Assembly: GCA_937980645.1 (NCBI GenBank)
Contig: CALJPQ010000009.1
Coordinates: 54,018 to 118,017, forward strand
Direction of reading: 5' to 3'
Source: an uncultured Saprospiraceae bacterium
GTDB lineage: Bacteria > Bacteroidota > Bacteroidia > Chitinophagales > Saprospiraceae
DNA: 64,000 bases
The notes under the pieces were generated by a model. That model searched no databases. It had not been told where the DNA came from and saw only the letters and a program-made list of their open reading frames with translations. Below, one piece after another: positions 1 through 26,678 of this stretch. Made by a program: the position numbers and the translations under genes. Numbering within the stretch: the stretch's first letter is position 1; the number at the start of each line of letters is the position of its first letter.

Positions 1-1121
1 TAAAGCGCCCGGGCGTCGGGTACTGCCCCTTGCGCTCGCAAGGCCTGCACGGCCAGCACAACAACACCGGCAGCATAGGCAGCGGCGATTGCCGTGCTGC
101 GCGAGACGGGTAGCGCCGGTTTGCCCGGCAGTGAGTAGTTCAGCCCCGTACCCGGAGCCAGCAGGTCGAGCCGCGGGCTGATGGCAGAGAAGGCACACCG
201 CTTTTCGAAGGAGTCTTGCGCGCCCACAGCTAGCACACCGTCTAGCACGGCCGGGTAGCGCAGAAGAGGGCGGCTGGAAAGCGTCGTGCCCACCGGTGCT
301 ACCAGCGGCACGCCGCGTGCAAGAGCGGTTTCGATGAGTTGTTGGAGTTTTTCCCGCTGGGCGGGCGTCAGCACGGGAAGTTCGGCCAGCGTCAGGACGA
401 CGTGAGCGTCTTTCTCGAGCGCCCATGCCAGCCCGCTGATGAGGTTGTCGGGTGCGATAAGCAGCGGCTGGTCGCCCACTTTGCCGATGAGCAATTGCGC
501 TTCGGGCGCCACGCCGTAGAGCAGCGTGCCCGCACCGGCAGCCGTTACGGCGCACTGAACGCCGAGGCCATTAGTGTCGCGCACGTCGCTGCTAAGGCTA
601 GGAAAGGCACAGACGTCGGTGATGTGCTGGAGGTCAGGGTGGTCGGTCAACGCGCCGGTGCCCAGTATTGCCAAGTGCACGCCGTTGCCGCGCAAGCCAC
701 GCGTCCACCAGTCTTCCGGGATGCGGTGCAGGGCAAGCGCCCAGTTGAGCCGGGCCAACTCAGGAGCGGGTGGAGACTCGAGCGGGGACGGCTCGGGCGC
801 CTTGCGGGGCTTCGCAGGCGGCGGCTCGGGTGATGTGTCGGCTTGCGGCCAGGCCGGCGCATCGGGCAGCGGAGTAGGCGTGGTTTCGTATGCAGCGTCG
901 GCAGGCGGTGGCAAGGCCTTTTCAGATACGATTTCCGTCATGCCGGCCCAGTAATACCAGCCGTTAGCGTCAGCATACCATAGGCTGACCCCTTCGAGTG
1001 CTTCGCCTTGCACTGGCTTGACCTCGATGACTGCTCCAGCAAAGGCGATACCGATGGGTTCGCTACCCGTGGCCGACGGCGCCGGCCGAATATAAGTATC
1101 ATCTAAGAGTCGAATTTTCAT
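1..1121 (-). CDS. SH3b-like plus subtilisin (S8)-like domain protein, C-terminus off window; catalytic Asp and His apparently substituted
   Basis: Not in the ORF track because it runs off the left edge. Hand translation from the ATG at 1121 gives MKIRLLDDTYIRPAPSATGSEPIGIAFAGAVIEVKPVQGEALEGVSLWYADANGWYYWAGMTE, then a Pro-rich linker. S8-like blocks follow: GNGVHLAILGTGALTDHPDL, DTNGLGVQCAVTAAG, VSRSTAIAAAYAAGVV. The frame is open down to position 1. Confidence 0.55.
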   Translation of the reverse strand, partial: MKIRLLDDTYIRPAPSATGSEPIGIAFAGAVIEVKPVQGEALEGVSLWYADANGWYYWAGMTEIVSEKALPPPADAAYETTPTPLPDAPAWPQADTSPEPPPAKPRKAPEPSPLESPPAPELARLNWALALHRIPEDWWTRGLRGNGVHLAILGTGALTDHPDLQHITDVCAFPSLSSDVRDTNGLGVQCAVTAAGAGTLLYGVAPEAQLLIGKVGDQPLLIAPDNLISGLAWALEKDAHVVLTLAELPVLTPAQREKLQQLIETALARGVPLVAPVGTTLSSRPLLRYPAVLDGVLAVGAQDSFEKRCAFSAISPRLDLLAPGTGLNYSLPGKPALPVSRSTAIAAAYAAGVVVLAVQALRAQGAVPDARAL

Positions 1122-1143
1122 GACACGCAGCGTTTACACAGGG

Positions 1144-2106
1144 TCAGCCCACCGGGTTGGAAGAAGCGGTGCGTGCAGGCAACTGGCGGCGCGGTGCGGC
1201 CTCAACTCCTGCAGAGGAAGGGGGAGCGGAGTCGCCACCTCGCCGTACATTCAACAATATCCGCAACAAATCGAACCAGAACGGTGCGCCCAGAGTAACG
1301 GCTACGGCCGTCAGCAGCCATCCCAGCAGCTTGCTCAGCCACCACGGGAAGGCACGCTCGCCACCGTCGGCCACATACCAGCCCAGGCCCAACGGCGAGC
1401 GGATGTATTCGATGCGCTGAAGGGCCGAGTCCATACGTACCACAGCCTGGTCGAGTGCAATCGCAGCAGAGTCGCTGCTTTCCAATGTGGCCGTCTGAGC
1501 CGCAAAGTCGGAAGCCCATTCCACCAGCAAGCGCTGGGTGGTGGTGTTGGAAGAAATGCTGTGGTACATCTGAACGGTGTCCACGTTGAACAGCAACGCC
1601 AGCGCCAGCCCAATGCCAAAAAGCCACCATTTCACCGAGCGTTTGTACCAGTCGGTTGAGCGCTGCATGACTTCGTCGAACCACAACTCCGCCTGGGCGC
1701 GCAAGGCCGAGGGGTCGTTGCCCGCGCGGCGCACTAAGTACTGGAGCATCCGCTTAGCGTCGCCCTCTTCCATATTCTGTAAGCGCGCCTCCGTCTGTGA
1801 AGCGTCGTCGCCGTACAATACATCGTGTAGCACCGTGGCAAATACCTGGCGGCTGAGGTACGACGGCAGGTGATAGGCCGACGGCCGTGCCTGCCGATAG
1901 TTGGCCGCATAGGTGCACTGCCGAAACAGGGGGTGCCGCACAAACGTATTTATCTTCTCGCCCAGCATGTTCTCCAGCGTGTGCCGCAAATGGCGCGCCC
2001 GCAACGACAAGGCCGCCGCAAGAACTTCCAGTATCGCTGTAGCCAACAGGCTGAACAGCAACAGGACGAATACTATGCCGATAACGATGTTTAGAATGGT
2101 GAACAT
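1144..2106 (-). CDS. Hypothetical integral membrane protein (about 3 TM segments) at the distal end of the eCIS operon
   Basis: 320-aa ORF. Hydrophobic segments: MFTILNIVIGIVFVLLLFSLLATAILEVLAAAL, WWLFGIGLALALLFNV, LLGWLLTAVAVTLGAPFWFDLL. Same strand as the flanking eCIS-associated genes, with 23-33 bp spacing. Confidence 0.6.
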   Translation of the reverse strand: MFTILNIVIGIVFVLLLFSLLATAILEVLAAALSLRARHLRHTLENMLGEKINTFVRHPLFRQCTYAANYRQARPSAYHLPSYLSRQVFATVLHDVLYGDDASQTEARLQNMEEGDAKRMLQYLVRRAGNDPSALRAQAELWFDEVMQRSTDWYKRSVKWWLFGIGLALALLFNVDTVQMYHSISSNTTTQRLLVEWASDFAAQTATLESSDSAAIALDQAVVRMDSALQRIEYIRSPLGLGWYVADGGERAFPWWLSKLLGWLLTAVAVTLGAPFWFDLLRILLNVRRGGDSAPPSSAGVEAAPRRQLPARTASSNPVG

Positions 2107-2139
2107 GGTAGGCGTGGTTTAGGTGGTTAAGTGCTATTC

Positions 2140-25287: not shown

Positions 25288-25359
25288 ACTGCGTGGTTGT
25301 TTTTTATGGAATGAACAAAACGGTGGCGGCTATTGGATGGGGTGAAGATGTCGGTCACC

Positions 25360-26106
25360 CTAAACCGGCTCAAATCGAAGGTCGTAGCGAATGGGGGTAT
25401 CGTAGTCGGTATTTTGGTCTTTGAAAATGCGGATGACAGCGACGACGTCTTCGTATAATAATGCGGTGTCGGCAATAGCTAATTGCTCGCCCGGAGGCAC
25501 CCCAACGTGCGCAAAGCGGTAGACGCCAGCGGGTAATTCGATGAGCAAGGGTAGTTTCTTTTTGTCGGAGGCATCGAACACCAGCGATGTCGCGGGCGGC
25601 CCTGGGCGACGCGGTGTTACCTGTACGGCAGTTACGCCTGCCGGTGGTGCGTAGATGAGCCGCTCTGGGAGGCGAGCCGCTCGGTGTTGAGCAGCAGCCG
25701 TGAACGTCAGGGCTAGTATGCCGTTATCGTTGACCAGGCCCTGATCGGGCGCCAGCGCAGCATTCAGGTTATCGAAGTACAGCGTTTGGGGTTGGCTCAG
25801 CAGCGAGGGCGTGGTGGCATTGAAAGGCTTAAGGTTACCTAAGGCCACTTTGTTTTTGGCTTTTAATAAAAAGGTAAATGCTTGCACTCGATTCAGTTTC
25901 CGAACGATCGTTTTTGTGCCGTCGGGCAACACTTTTTTTTCCGCAATGGCGACCGCCGACGATGGATAAGCTTTGAACAGCAGCCCGTGGTTGCGCAGCG
26001 CCAGCGTGCCATCGTCGGTTGGCTGCAGGGTGAAAAAATCTGGCTCCAGCGGGTGAAGGATGCGCAGGGCGAAGAGGATGTCGTATTTCCAGTTGATGGT
26101 GCTCAT
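25360..26106 (-). CDS. Hypothetical eCIS-associated protein (248 aa) between the cap and sheath genes
   Basis: Intact ORF, translationally coupled to the DUF4255 gene (ATGA at 26103-26106). I recognise no family. Confidence 0.5.
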   Translation of the reverse strand: MSTINWKYDILFALRILHPLEPDFFTLQPTDDGTLALRNHGLLFKAYPSSAVAIAEKKVLPDGTKTIVRKLNRVQAFTFLLKAKNKVALGNLKPFNATTPSLLSQPQTLYFDNLNAALAPDQGLVNDNGILALTFTAAAQHRAARLPERLIYAPPAGVTAVQVTPRRPGPPATSLVFDASDKKKLPLLIELPAGVYRFAHVGVPPGEQLAIADTALLYEDVVAVIRIFKDQNTDYDTPIRYDLRFEPV

Positions 26107-26678
26107 AGCGGTTGCGGTGTCGCGCCAATGCCCGTAACCACGCCGGCGTCTTGCGGCTGCTGTCGCTGGATGATAAGCAGGCGCATTTTGTAGAGCACTG
26201 AGGGCAGGTATTTACTGCCGTTGATACCCCACAGGTGGTTGAGCGCTTCGAAGTTGAGGGAATGAAGGTCGAAAATCAGCTTTTCAATACCCACGGCTTT
26301 CAGCGCCGGGTCGGCAAAAACGTGACGCGCCTGAAAGAACTCAAGGATGTCGCCCACAAGGCGCAAGGACTCAGCGTATTGATTTTTGTTCGCGCTGAAC
26401 AGAACATAGACGTTGATGAACACTTCGGGCGGTTGTCCCACGGTTTTAGGCAGCCCGTCGTCGCCGTTCACCTTGCGATGATAGGGCTGGTTGCGCAACG
26501 CCGCCTCCTGTTCGATATTGACCACCGTGGCAATGCCCACGTTCGTCAGGTTTTGTGTTGAGCTGTCTTGCCCCGAATCCACCGCCGACACATTGCCCAG
26601 CACTACTTCTGGCGGACTGACCTGGCCAAGATCGGCATTGAGCTGCTGGAGAAGCCAATTGAGCGCTATGTCTATCAT
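26103..26678 (-). CDS. DUF4255 (Pvc16 N-terminal-like) tail terminator/cap protein (Afp16 analogue); first gene of the operon
   Basis: 191 aa. MIDIALNWLLQQLNADLG...VVLGNVS... and overall length fit DUF4255, a marker family of eCIS loci. Confidence 0.7.
   Translation of the reverse strand: MIDIALNWLLQQLNADLGQVSPPEVVLGNVSAVDSGQDSSTQNLTNVGIATVVNIEQEAALRNQPYHRKVNGDDGLPKTVGQPPEVFINVYVLFSANKNQYAESLRLVGDILEFFQARHVFADPALKAVGIEKLIFDLHSLNFEALNHLWGINGSKYLPSVLYKMRLLIIQRQQPQDAGVVTGIGATPQPL

What the first reader, a model, noticed from the sequence alone, without database searches (positions are those of the whole stretch)
1..26678. Complete Afp/PVC-type extracellular contractile injection system (eCIS) operon in a Bacteroidota-like chromosome
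About twenty co-directional minus-strand genes lie almost without intergenic space. In order: DUF4255 cap-like, unknown 248 aa, a single sheath, two gp19-like tube paralogues, a 58-aa DUF5908-like ORF, LysM tube initiator, VgrG-like spike, PAAR, gp25, a giant Baseplate_J-like protein, a 951-aa second wedge protein, a 1110-aa fibre-like protein and a tape-measure-like protein. Cargo (two DUF4157 proteins) and accessory genes follow. ATGA start/stop overlaps at 26103-26106, 19207-19210, 12989-12992 and 6678-6681 indicate translational coupling. There are no capsid, portal, terminase, integrase or lysis genes, which argues against a prophage. There is no two-subunit TssB/TssC sheath, ClpV or membrane complex, which argues against a canonical T6SS. 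The right flank is housekeeping DNA. Target organism and payload activities are unknown, and few eCIS from this phylum have been studied experimentally.
Basis: partly seen in the sequence, partly recalled or inferred. Interest (0 to 1): 0.85.

Follow-up and report, generated by a model that had tools for sequence, protein, structure and literature searches.

The report
Saprospiraceae contractile injection system operon
This is a real phage-tail-like protein-injection gene cluster in the chromosome of an uncultured Saprospiraceae bacterium. It belongs to an already studied group (AlgoCIS, cyanobacterial tCIS, T6SS subtype iv), so it is a solid but fairly ordinary find with a few untested lineage-specific extras.

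Summary
Window 1-26678 carries 19 co-directional minus-strand genes, 97.6% coding, with four ATGA overlaps. They encode cap, sheath, two tubes, plug, tube initiator, spike, PAAR, gp25, Cis11, Cis12, a fibre-like Cis19, tape measure and two DUF4157 cargo proteins.

Three points of the interpretation need correction.
1. The operon is not complete in the window. The last in-window gene is cut, and the AAA+ ATPase lies about 1.4 kb beyond the left edge.
2. It is not Afp/PVC-type. Every structural protein is closest to AlgoCIS and Anabaena tCIS (clade Ib). The "unknown 248 aa" is the cap adaptor Cis16B. The 1110-aa protein is Cis19.
3. "Extracellular" is not established. The host is Saprospiraceae, and the one characterised CIS of that family (Aureispira) works as a membrane-anchored T6SS subtype iv.

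Lineage-specific extras:
- A 2073-aa Cis11 with an adhesin-like array of about 8 beta-sandwich domains, shared by at least 33 database clusters.
- A conserved 3-TM membrane protein next to a catalytically dead subtilase.
- A lipoprotein-like ORF.
- Cargo with a PLA2-like motif, and cargo with two HExxH motifs.

Verdict: new member of a known kind, moderate interest.

The parts
26919..27275 (-). AraC/MarA-type HTH-only protein (118 aa). Candidate regulator, transcribed separately upstream of the operon.
   Evidence: Pfam HTH_18 1.7e-24. Conserved upstream of the cap gene in the closest relative L004 (5e-69), and weakly in L049. A regulatory role is inferred only.
26769..26783 (-). Terminator-like GC hairpin between the AraC-like gene and the operon. 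The operon promoter should lie in 26679-26768.
   Evidence: Consensus scan and sequence read. This is a consensus match only.
26103..26678 (-). Cis16A short cap / tail terminator (191 aa)
   Evidence: Pvc16_N 2.2e-29. Same size class as Alg16A, which is 197 aa (PMC8894135).
25360..26106 (-).
   Evidence: No single-sequence hit. A profile of 20 syntenic cap-to-sheath genes hits Alg16B 5.5e-35, All3326 3e-21 and SalCis16b 1e-10, full length.
23887..25287 (-). Cis2 sheath (466 aa, single copy)
   Evidence: Phage_sheath_1 and 1C. All3325 7e-134, Alg2 6e-132, Afp/Pvc sheaths about 1e-57.
23358..23789 (-). Cis1 inner tube (143 aa)
   Evidence: Phage_T4_gp19 1.9e-53
22828..23289 (-). Cis5 tube paralogue (up to 153 aa; the ORF starts at TTG, the true start may be internal)
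   Evidence: Phage_T4_gp19 4.6e-36
22646..22822 (-). Cis6 spike plug (58 aa)
   Evidence: DUF5908 2.7e-14. The plug role is taken from Alg6 in PMC8894135.
21914..22642 (-). Cis7 tube initiator with C-terminal LysM-like domain (242 aa)
   Evidence: CIS_tube 4.2e-36. Full-length alignment to Alg7, annotated as a LysM domain-containing protein, 9.6e-39.
20075..21904 (-). Cis8 VgrG-like spike (609 aa)
   Evidence: Phage_base_V 6.6e-18, Phage_GPD 2.5e-9
19723..20013 (-). Cis10 PAAR tip (96 aa)
   Evidence: PAAR_motif 3.3e-26
19207..19629 (-). Cis9 gp25-like sheath initiator (140 aa)
   Evidence: GPW_gp25 1.1e-23
12989..19210 (-). Cis11 baseplate wedge / spike-cage protein, 2073 aa. Residues about 267-662 align to the Alg11/All3317 N-terminal and cage region. 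Residues about 690-1430 are an inserted array of about 8 beta-sandwich (CarboxypepD_reg/TTR/CnaB-like) domains. Residues 1485-1954 are the conserved Baseplate_J-type C-terminal part. Residues 2010-2073 are a Pro/Thr/Ala-rich tail.
   Evidence: PDB phmmer with alignments. CarboxypepD_reg 1e-39. 5 of 8 segments hit the family on their own. AF2 model pLDDT 84.3, all-beta across the insert. Foldseek finds Alg11 and All3317 first, then pilins and adhesin stalks. Relatives are usually 1020-1370 aa. At least 33 giant homologues exist.
10137..12992 (-). Cis12 (gp6/gp7-like wedge, 951 aa)
   Evidence: All3315 1.8e-104, Alg12 2.7e-92, Pvc12 and Afp12 about 1e-13. The length matches Alg12 (933 aa), not tCIS Cis12 (1335 aa).
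6678..10010 (-). Cis19 fibre/crown-type protein (1110 aa). The N-terminal about 430 aa are helical with 36-aa repeats, followed by a conserved baseplate-proximal part.
   Evidence: All3314 (Cis19) 1.3e-18 and the AlgoCIS PKD-domain protein 9wt0_a 7.5e-11. Sequence and repeats.
8890..9235 (-). 108-bp tandem repeat, 3.2 copies, 98% identical, inside the Cis19 stalk region
   Evidence: TRF score 678
5299..6681 (-). Cis14 tape measure (460 aa)
   Evidence: CIS_TMP 4.8e-112, full length
4738..5256 (-). 172-aa Cys-rich protein with an N-terminal signal peptide and lipoprotein-like "ALPSSC". Candidate immunity or accessory protein.
   Evidence: Hydrophobic N-terminus. No family hit. No homologue in four related loci. 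Function inferred only.
3148..4725 (-). Cargo 1 (525 aa). Polar NTD, then DUF4157 (152-229, HELAH), then a Lys/Trp-rich amphipathic stretch (about 236-335), then a second HExxH (HELTH, about 420).
   Evidence: eCIS_core 2.4e-35. Sequence, composition. Shares NTD plus DUF4157 with cargo 2 (7e-30).
2140..3129 (-). Cargo 2 (319-329 aa). NTD, then DUF4157 (126-203, HELVH), then a Cys-rich C-terminal domain with PLA2-like motifs "YDGCSVP" and "CDLHDECY".
   Evidence: eCIS_core 6.2e-34. PLA2G12 4.7e-6 but 27 bits, below the cut-off of 34. No PDB sequence hit.
1144..2106 (-). 320-aa inner-membrane protein with 3 TM helices. Orphan family that recurs in Saprospirales CIS loci.
   Evidence: TM scan. 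407 homologues, none annotated. Found in CIS loci L021, L084, L085 and L088. AF2 pLDDT 83.8 with no PDB fold match.
1..1121 (-). Pseudo-subtilase (412 aa in full; 373 aa lie in the window). N-terminal SH3-like segment, Pro-rich linker, then an S8 fold lacking the catalytic residues. The AAA+ ATPase Cis15 (437 aa) follows outside the window, about 127-1440 nt beyond its left edge.
   Evidence: Peptidase_S8 5e-13. Alignment to subtilisin shows D32 to G, H64 to L, N155 to T, S221 to A. Same losses in L084 and L021. Source contig L001 gives the full gene and the AAA gene. AAA PF00004 4.9e-26 with Walker A and B.

Best explanation
The region is the main body of a chromosomal contractile injection system (CIS) operon of clade Ib, in an uncultured Saprospiraceae bacterium. 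It corresponds almost gene for gene with AlgoCIS.

Shown by homology:
- A baseplate (Cis7, 8, 9, 10, 11, 12 with the Cis6 plug) nucleates a Cis1/Cis5 tube. The Cis14 tape measure sets its length. A single Cis2 sheath wraps it. Cis16A plus the Cis16B adaptor cap it.
- Two proteins have the Cgo1/Cgo2 architecture: polar N-terminal region, DUF4157, then a variable C-terminal domain.

Inferred from AlgoCIS experiments:
- The polar N-termini direct the cargo into the tube lumen.
- Loading depends on the AAA+ ATPase encoded just outside the window.
- Sheath contraction drives the spike and tube, with the cargo, into a target cell.

Inferred from sequence only:
- One cargo acts as a phospholipase A2.
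- The other acts as a zinc peptidase or membrane-active protein.
- Target recognition uses the Cis19 fibres and six adhesin-like stalks of about 8 beta-sandwich domains inserted in the Cis11 spike cage.
- The 172-aa lipoprotein-like ORF may be an immunity protein.

My preferred mode is particles released by lysis that act extracellularly (eCIS). I prefer it only modestly over a cell-anchored mode.
For: Core families are all present above Pfam cut-offs.

Best PDB relatives are always tCIS or AlgoCIS:
- Sheath 7e-134 and 6e-132
- Cis11 6.5e-95 and 4e-84
- Cis12 2e-104 and 3e-92
- Cis7 9.6e-39
- Cis19 1e-18 and 7.5e-11
- Cis16B profile 5.5e-35

The clade-Ib hallmarks named in PMC8894135 are all present: cap adaptor, plug and cage-bearing Cis11.

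Cargo: the two proteins share NTD plus DUF4157 (7e-30) and have unrelated C-terminal domains, as in Cgo1/Cgo2. The NTDs are 73-78% polar or small residues. The AAA+ gene is at the operon end. Alg15 and the cargo NTD are required for loading in AlgoCIS (preprint 10.64898/2026.05.27.728243).

For the extracellular mode:
- No TM segment in any structural protein.
- No Cis13-type TM fibre, and Cis12 has the AlgoCIS size.
- The Cis11 insert is built from domains typical of extracellular adhesins and pilins. Sister Cis11 proteins carry SusD-like glycan-binding domains at a CIS locus.
- Aureispira and Saprospira are absent from the 80 closest sheath relatives, while Nostoc and Algoriphagus are present.
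Against: - Mode of action cannot be read from sequence in clade Ib.
- The only characterised Saprospiraceae CIS is inner-membrane-anchored.
- The operon encodes a conserved 3-TM membrane protein and a signal-peptide protein whose roles are unknown.
- No lysis genes are evident in the operon.
- The PLA2 call is below Pfam's threshold and has no PDB sequence support.
- The count of beta-sandwich domains (5 confirmed, about 8 inferred) rests on Pfam plus an AF2 model.
- Nothing shows that the operon is expressed.
Confidence: 0.6

Rival explanations
1. The same machine works as a cell-anchored, contact-dependent T6SS subtype iv, as in Aureispira and Saprospira. The baseplate docks on the inner membrane and fires outward into prey or competitor bacteria. 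The conserved 3-TM protein, the dead subtilase and/or the Cis11 stalks would provide the anchor or a trans-envelope link.
For: - The host is Saprospiraceae.
- Aureispira's clade-Ib CIS is inner-membrane-anchored, kills prey and has DUF4157 effector candidates. The genes for its anchor are not identified.
- In T6SSiv the Cis11 cage contacts the membrane (PMC8894135).
- The u320 membrane protein is conserved in five Saprospirales CIS loci, next to the AAA+ and S8 genes.
- A lipoprotein-like possible immunity ORF would fit bacterial targets.
- No lysis cassette is present.
Against: - Aureispira and Saprospira sheaths are not among the 80 nearest relatives, although they belong to the same family (this evidence is indirect).
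- Distant u320 family members occur outside CIS loci.
- The pseudo-subtilase has no signal peptide or TM segment.
- Adhesin-type and SusD-type inserts in Cis11 make more sense if exposed to a target surface.
- AlgoCIS, an eCIS, has the same gene set and also lacks lysis genes.
Confidence: 0.3
2. An intracellular CIS that stays in the producer and fires only on cell death or stress. This is the mode of Anabaena tCIS (thylakoid-anchored) and Streptomyces CIS.
For: tCIS proteins are the top PDB hits for sheath, Cis11, Cis12 and Cis19. A membrane protein is encoded in the operon, loosely analogous to CisA in Streptomyces (title of 10.1101/2024.06.25.600559).
Against: The three tCIS anchoring features are missing. 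There is no Cis13 with a TM helix between Cis11 and Cis12, which overlap by ATGA. Cis12 lacks the 610-1100 extension (951 aa versus 1335 aa). The host has no thylakoids. AlgoCIS scores are nearly equal to the tCIS scores.
Confidence: 0.07
3. A defective myovirus prophage tail, an R-type tailocin, or a canonical T6SS.
For: The shared phage-tail ancestry of sheath, tube, gp25 and VgrG families.
Against: - No capsid, portal, terminase, integrase or lysis genes in the 64-kb window or 10 kb to the left.
- CIS-specific genes are present: Pvc16_N, CIS_TMP, CIS_tube, DUF5908, eCIS_core, Cis12 and AAA+.
- Phage and pyocin sheaths score only about 1e-5.
- No TssB/C, ClpV or TssJLM.
Confidence: 0.02

Closest known systems
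AlgoCIS of Algoriphagus machipongonensis (clade Ib eCIS; PDB 7ADZ/7AEB; PMC8894135)
   Same: - Gene order and content: short cap Cis16A, cap adaptor Cis16B, single sheath, two tubes, Cis6 plug, Cis7 with LysM, VgrG, PAAR, gp25, cage-bearing Cis11, Cis12 of the same size, Cis19-type fibre, CIS_TMP, two DUF4157 cargo proteins with a shared NTD, and an AAA+ ATPase.
- Both hosts are Bacteroidota.
   Different: - The sheath lacks the AlgoCIS insertion (466 versus 692 aa).
- Cis11 is twice as long (2073 versus 1050 aa), with an array of about 8 beta-sandwich domains.
- Cis19 has a repeat-bearing helical N-terminal stalk.
- The operon carries an extra lipoprotein-like ORF, a 3-TM membrane protein and a dead subtilase.
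- The cargo C-terminal domains differ (PLA2-like; second HExxH).
- Sequence identity is only about 50% at the sheath.
Anabaena PCC 7120 thylakoid-anchored CIS (tCIS; PDB 7B5H/7B5I; PMC8894136)
   Same: It gives the best PDB scores for sheath, Cis11, Cis12 and Cis19. It also has a bipartite cap, a plug, a cage and Cis19.
   Different: This locus has no Cis13 TM fibre and no Cis12 membrane-connector extension. The host has no thylakoids. The tCIS cluster has a different gene order around Cis11, Cis13 and Cis12.
T6SS subtype iv of Aureispira sp. / Saprospira ("rhapidosomes") and Ca. Amoebophilus (bioRxiv 10.1101/2024.01.29.577165)
   Same: Same clade Ib and the same bacterial family (Saprospiraceae). 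It has a caged Cis11, a tape measure and DUF4157 effector candidates.
   Different: Inner-membrane anchoring, a trans-envelope complex and antennae were seen there in situ. None of these can be assessed here. Those sheaths were not among the nearest 80 relatives of this one. No sequence comparison was possible with the tools available.
Afp (Serratia) / PVC (Photorhabdus), clade Ia eCIS
   Same: Homologous core (Afp1-12, 14-16 equivalents) and the same general injection mechanism.
   Different: Afp and PVC have three sheath paralogues, a long two-domain cap, an Afp13 adenovirus-like fibre and no Cis11 cage. They are much more distant in sequence (sheath about 1e-57, Cis12 about 1e-13).

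Membership tests
Contractile injection system, clade Ib (AlgoCIS / MAC / tCIS / T6SSiv) | Sheath, tube, VgrG, PAAR, gp25, Cis11, Cis12, tape measure and cap encoded in one cluster | tested here: met
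   Pfam hits above cut-off. Cis11 and Cis12 by PDB phmmer.
Contractile injection system, clade Ib (AlgoCIS / MAC / tCIS / T6SSiv) | Bipartite cap: short Cis16A plus separate Cis16B cap adaptor | tested here: met
   Pvc16_N protein of 191 aa. The 248-aa family profile hits Alg16B 5.5e-35 and All3326 3e-21. The link is through a profile, not the single sequence.
Contractile injection system, clade Ib (AlgoCIS / MAC / tCIS / T6SSiv) | Cis6 plug and Cis11 with a cage-forming extension | tested here: met
   DUF5908 2.7e-14. Cis11 residues 267-662 align to the N-terminal and cage region of All3317 and Alg11. Foldseek's top hits are 7aeb_G and 7b5h_AH.
Contractile injection system, clade Ib (AlgoCIS / MAC / tCIS / T6SSiv) | Phylogenetic placement of sheath/Cis8/Cis11 within subtype Ib of Chen et al. 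2019 | not tested
   Only a proxy is available. The best solved relatives are all clade-Ib systems, by 70 or more orders of magnitude over Afp and PVC. No tree with reference sequences was built.
eCIS, operational genomic definition (Geller et al. 2021, PMC8213781) | At least 10 core genes including at least one of Afp12/13/14/16, and not a phage, T6SS or pyocin | tested here: met
   13 core genes are in the window, including Cis12, Cis14 and Cis16. There are no phage head genes.
eCIS, operational genomic definition (Geller et al. 2021, PMC8213781) | AAA+ ATPase (Afp15 equivalent) in the cluster | tested here: met
   A 437-aa AAA protein with Walker A and B lies on the source contig just beyond the window's left edge. 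It is not inside the window.
eCIS in the functional sense | Particles released from the producer and acting free in the medium | not testable with these tools
   Needs supernatant versus pellet fractionation, EM or cryo-ET.
Afp/PVC type (clade Ia) | Three sheath paralogues (Afp2/3/4), a long two-domain Afp16 cap and an Afp13 fibre | tested here: not met
   There is one sheath gene and a 191-aa cap with a separate adaptor. The fibre-like protein matches Cis19 (All3314, AlgoCIS 9wt0_a) and no Afp13 or Pvc13 chain.
Thylakoid-anchored CIS (tCIS) | Cis13 with a C-terminal TM helix, and the Cis12 extension (aa 610-1100) | tested here: not met
   There is no gene between Cis11 and Cis12, which overlap by ATGA. 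Cis12 is 951 aa versus 1335 aa. No structural protein has a TM segment.
T6SS subtype iv | Baseplate anchored to the inner membrane in situ; sheath inside the T6SSiv clade | not testable with these tools
   No Aureispira, Saprospira or Amoebophilus sequences could be retrieved. The only indication is their absence from the 80 nearest sheath relatives.
Canonical T6SS (subtypes i-iii) | TssB/TssC two-part sheath, ClpV, TssJLM or TssNOPQR membrane complex | tested here: not met
   None appear among the Pfam hits of any large ORF in the window or the left flank.
Myovirus prophage / R-type tailocin | Capsid, portal, terminase, integrase or a holin-endolysin cassette nearby | tested here: not met
   One Amidase_2 gene at 40934-42205 lies 14 kb away among housekeeping genes.
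DUF4157 (eCIS_core) cargo of the Cgo1/Cgo2 kind | Polar or disordered NTD shared within the system, central DUF4157 with HExxH, variable C-terminal domain | tested here: met
   eCIS_core 2e-35 and 6e-34. HELAH and HELVH motifs. Shared NTD plus DUF4157 at 7e-30 with unrelated C-terminal domains. NTD composition. Loading into the lumen was not tested.
Secreted phospholipase A2 (C-terminal domain of cargo 2) | Family HMM above threshold; His-Asp catalytic dyad in a CxxHDxCY context | tested here: inconclusive
   PLA2G12 scores 27.1 bits, below the cut-off of 34 (E 4.7e-6). The motif "CDLHDECY" is present. There is no PDB sequence hit.
Active subtilase (Peptidase S8) | Asp-His-Ser triad and oxyanion Asn | tested here: not met
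   The S8 fold is recognised (5e-13). D32 to G, H64 to L, N155 to T and S221 to A in the alignment to subtilisin BL. Similar losses occur in homologues L084 and L021.

The most novel reading that the evidence does not exclude
The Saprospirales-specific accessory set is the missing anchoring or trigger apparatus of a Saprospiraceae T6SS subtype iv. The set comprises the 3-TM membrane protein, the catalytically dead SH3-subtilase, and the six adhesin-like Cis11 stalks of about 8 domains. On this reading the locus would name genes for the membrane attachment or trans-envelope link. In Aureispira those structures have been seen by cryo-ET but not assigned to genes.
Probability: 0.2. Interest if true: 0.7.

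Novelty: new member of a known kind. Interest (0 to 1): 0.4.

Why it matters
Saprospiraceae include filamentous predators whose killing of Vibrio and other bacteria depends on a clade-Ib CIS. These bacteria are abundant in aquatic and wastewater communities.

This locus comes from an uncultured member of the family and adds three things.
- A sub-lineage in which the Cis11 cage is expanded into an adhesin-like stalk. The cage is a known hotspot for retargeting and for switching between released and anchored modes. In sister loci it carries SusD-like domains instead.
- A conserved membrane-protein and pseudo-protease module of unknown role.
- Candidate lipid- and protein-degrading cargo.

These are testable leads on how such machines choose targets or attach to membranes. 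They could also supply parts for engineered injection systems. As a discovery it is incremental. Catalogues already list thousands of such loci, and close structural homologues are solved.

Tried and rejected
- Single-sequence searches of the 248-aa, 172-aa and 320-aa ORFs against Pfam, NCBIfam and PDB gave nothing. Only the 248-aa ORF was resolved, by a synteny-derived profile.
- Foldseek of a confident AF2 model of the 320-aa membrane protein found no fold relative in PDB (best E 0.6, TM below 0.2). I therefore rejected any assignment such as holin, CisA-like or transporter.
- Self-BLAST of Cis11 found no internal repeats at E below 1e-3. The repeat array was shown instead by per-segment Pfam scans and the AF2 model.
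- Rfam at gathering thresholds found no RNA family in the window.
- The sigma-70 promoter scan was no better than shuffles. It is of little value in Bacteroidota anyway.
- PDB phmmer with the PLA2-like domain found nothing.
- I tried to place the locus relative to Aureispira T6SSiv, but no sequences were retrievable. The preprint's only held supplement is unrelated, and PDB 9EZM is the haloarchaeal system.
- I considered the HerA-like ATPase at 28399-30003 (+) as the missing CIS ATPase and rejected it. It is a HerA_C/DUF853-type protein on the opposite strand among housekeeping genes, and the true AAA+ gene is on the left.
- I considered the downstream Tsp protease and the two NlpC/P60 genes (L001) as a release module. 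I rejected this for lack of conservation in related loci.

Full report
**Observation**

Listing ORFs shows one unbroken series of large minus-strand ORFs from 26678 down to the left edge of the window. There are nineteen genes covering 97.6% of the bases, with gaps of -4 to 126 nt.

- Pvc16_N/DUF4255
- both sheath domains
- two Phage_T4_gp19 tubes
- DUF5908
- CIS_tube
- Phage_base_V and Phage_GPD
- PAAR
- GPW_gp25
- CIS_TMP (4.8e-112)
- two eCIS_core domains (the renamed DUF4157)

Two named families were not seen by Pfam but hold up through homology to solved CIS components. The 2073-aa protein hits only CarboxypepD_reg in Pfam. Against PDB it matches All3317 (6.5e-95), Alg11 (3.9e-84), Pvc11 and Afp11. 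The 242-aa protein aligns over its whole length, LysM domain included, with Alg7 (9.6e-39).

**Surroundings**

The right flank starts with a small AraC/MarA-type HTH gene (26919-27275). Beyond it are a HerA-like ATPase on the other strand, an MFS transporter, LysRS, Psd, Asd, shikimate kinase, a histidine kinase, BamA, a SurA-like PPIase and metabolic enzymes out to 64 kb.

An exact-match look-up of the 320-aa ORF recovered the source, a 313-kb metagenome contig. That contig shows what lies beyond the window's left edge:
- The truncated S8 gene is 412 aa in full.
- A 437-aa AAA+ ATPase follows. It has PF00004 at 4.9e-26 and Walker A and B motifs.
- Then come a tail-specific protease, two NlpC/P60 genes, NifU and Mfd.

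The operon is not complete in the window, however, because its ATPase lies outside.

**Host**

The sheath is 95% identical to that of a MAG labelled uncultured Saprospiraceae. The next relatives are only about 54% identical (Lewinellaceae). At least 561 relatives exist among species-representative genomes of Bacteroidota, Cyanobacteria, Chlorobiota, Proteobacteria and others.

**Which kind of CIS**

Every structural protein is closest to the two solved clade-Ib systems, Anabaena tCIS and AlgoCIS, and far from Afp and PVC:

| Protein | tCIS / AlgoCIS | Afp / PVC |
|---|---|---|
| Sheath | 7e-134 / 6e-132 | about 1e-57 |
| Cis12 | 2e-104 / 3e-92 | about 1e-13 |

In 52 related loci that slot is filled by one family. 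A profile of 20 members hits the AlgoCIS cap adaptor Alg16B (5.5e-35), tCIS Cis16B (3e-21) and SalCis16b over their full lengths.

The 1110-aa "fibre-like" protein matches Cis19. Its hits are All3314, the tCIS "crown" (1.3e-18), and the AlgoCIS PKD-domain protein (7.5e-11) (PMC8894136).

The features that Xu et al. describe as distinguishing this clade are all present (PMC8894135). These are the short cap plus adaptor, the Cis6 plug and the cage-bearing Cis11. The Afp/PVC features are absent: three sheaths, a long cap and an Afp13 fibre. The label "Afp/PVC-type" should therefore be replaced by "clade Ib, AlgoCIS-like".

**Cargo and loading**

The 525-aa and 319-329-aa proteins share a polar N-terminal region and the DUF4157 domain (36% identity over 220 aa, 7e-30). 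Their C-terminal domains are unrelated. This is the Cgo1/Cgo2 architecture.

In AlgoCIS such proteins sit in the tube lumen. The N-terminal region is required for loading, DUF4157 is dispensable, and the AAA+ protein Alg15 is required (PMC8894135; preprint 10.64898/2026.05.27.728243). I infer the same here.

The shorter cargo ends in a Cys-rich domain with "YDGCSVP" and "CDLHDECY". It gives a sub-threshold PLA2G12 hit (27 bits against a cut-off of 34) and no PDB sequence hit. A phospholipase A2 is plausible but unproven.

The longer cargo has a Lys/Trp-rich amphipathic stretch and a second HExxH motif.

**Lineage-specific features**

*1. Giant Cis11.*
- It is 2073 aa, against 1020-1370 aa in about 60 relatives.
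- Residues 267-662 and 1485-1954 align with Alg11 and All3317.
- Residues about 690-1430 are an insertion. Five of eight segments of about 95 aa hit CarboxypepD_reg independently.
- An AF2 model (pLDDT 84.3) is all-beta across the insert.
- Foldseek's best hits are Alg11 and All3317. After these come pilins, SdrD/UafA-type adhesin stalks and alpha-2-macroglobulins.
- At least 33 database clusters share this form. They are 1743-2202 aa and come from Saprospiraceae and Chitinophagales MAGs. A sister set carries SusD-like domains instead, verified in a CIS locus.
- The cage is a known evolutionary hotspot (PMC8894135), so this is an elaboration of a known theme.

*2. Membrane protein plus pseudo-subtilase.*
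- The 320-aa protein has three TM helices and 407 unannotated homologues.
- Its model is confident, all-alpha, and has no PDB fold match.
- The protein recurs in CIS loci of Phaeodactylibacter, Lewinellaceae, Saprospirales and Chitinophagales MAGs. There it lies next to the AAA+ and/or S8 genes. A distant paralogue lies elsewhere.
- The adjacent S8 protein has lost Asp, His, Ser and the oxyanion Asn. Its CIS-linked homologues have lost them too.

*3. Lipoprotein-like ORF.* The 172-aa Cys-rich protein with a signal peptide has no homologue in related loci. This fits a cargo-specific immunity protein, but that is a guess.

**Mode of action**

Clade Ib contains released eCIS (AlgoCIS, MAC), a thylakoid-anchored CIS and the inner-membrane-anchored T6SSiv. 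In Saprospiraceae, the Aureispira system is a T6SSiv that kills prey. Saprospira "rhapidosomes" are interpreted the same way.

Arguments for release here:
- No TM segment in any structural protein.
- No tCIS anchoring features: no Cis13, and Cis12 of AlgoCIS size.
- Adhesin-type and glycan-binding-type modules on the baseplate.
- Aureispira and Saprospira absent from the 80 nearest sheath relatives.

Arguments for anchoring:
- The family precedent.
- The conserved operon-encoded membrane protein.
- No lysis genes.

I weight the modes at about 0.6 released, 0.3 envelope-anchored and under 0.1 intracellular. Prophage, tailocin and canonical T6SS readings are effectively excluded.

**Verdict**

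Operational eCIS criteria (PMC8213781) are met. Such loci are catalogued by the thousand, and close homologues are solved at atomic resolution. I rate this a new member of a known kind with moderate interest. The Cis11 stalk and the membrane-protein and pseudo-subtilase module are the parts worth following up.

Noticed in passing
window 8890-9235 (inside the Cis19 gene): A 108-bp tandem repeat, 3.2 copies at 98% identity. It encodes 36-aa units (KANQTDLDAINQTVTQKANQTDLDDFKTQTQQQLNS) in a helical N-terminal stalk. Near-perfect repeats could let the fibre length vary between strains.
   Followed up: partly
L087:541-6072 (JGI 3300009084 contig) and proteins P0163, P0167, P0170-P0172, P0175: Cis11 homologues of about 1840 aa carry SusD_RagB/SusD-like_3 domains instead of CarboxypepD_reg repeats. 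They lie in a bona fide CIS locus (gp25, Cis11, Cis12, a 1748-aa Cis19, TMP). Modules of SusC/SusD glycan-uptake systems seem to be recruited into the baseplate cage.
   Followed up: partly
window 1-1121 and L001:10986-12224; L084:7258-8808; L021:6496-7965: The CIS-linked subtilase has lost all catalytic residues (D to G, H to L or R, N to T or D, S to A or Y). It keeps a conserved SH3-like N-terminal segment and has no signal peptide. The 683-aa S8 in L085 keeps the triad.
   Followed up: partly
window 1144-2106; L021:5483-6496; L084:6073-7070 and 10001-11029; L085:10001-11020; L088:26176-end: An orphan 3-TM membrane protein family (407 homologues, no annotation, no PDB fold match) recurs at the 3' end of Saprospirales CIS loci next to the AAA+ ATPase. 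More distant members (L086) sit in unrelated housekeeping contexts.
   Followed up: yes
window 26903-26937: A perfect 12-bp palindrome GAACATATGTTC, with a near copy 21 bp upstream (TTGGAACATATGT twice). It lies at the 3' end of the AraC-like gene, about 225-260 bp upstream of the cap start codon. It may be an operator.
   Followed up: no
L088:2817-3365 (Chitinophagales MAG JAKSDI010000021): A NusG-like gene (182 aa) lies directly upstream of the cap gene of a giant-Cis11 CIS operon. It is reminiscent of UpxY-type operon-specific antiterminators. This locus also lacks a Cis16B gene between cap and sheath.
   Followed up: no
window 27276-28398: About 1.1 kb with no ORF over 80 aa and the lowest G+C of the window (0.51). 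It holds several hairpin plus T-run sites, between the AraC-like gene and the HerA-like gene. No Rfam family matched.
   Followed up: partly
window 28399-30003 (+): A HerA_C/DUF853 (YjgR-like) ATPase, 1.4e-175, lies 1.7 kb from the operon on the opposite strand. It is not the CIS ATPase, and its function here is unknown.
   Followed up: no
window 2140-3129: The longest ORF of cargo 2 starts at TTG (329 aa) with a hydrophobic MIFTSLILYIM leader. The public gene call starts at the ATG ten codons later (319 aa), which is probably the true start.
   Followed up: no
L085:11262-13410: In a Saprospirales MAG, an IS110-family transposase and a HepT/MNT toxin-antitoxin pair sit between the membrane-protein gene and the S8 gene of the CIS locus. 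The AAA+ ORF there was not called as a gene. This recalls the IS-mediated switching of T6SSiv reported for Aureispira.
   Followed up: no
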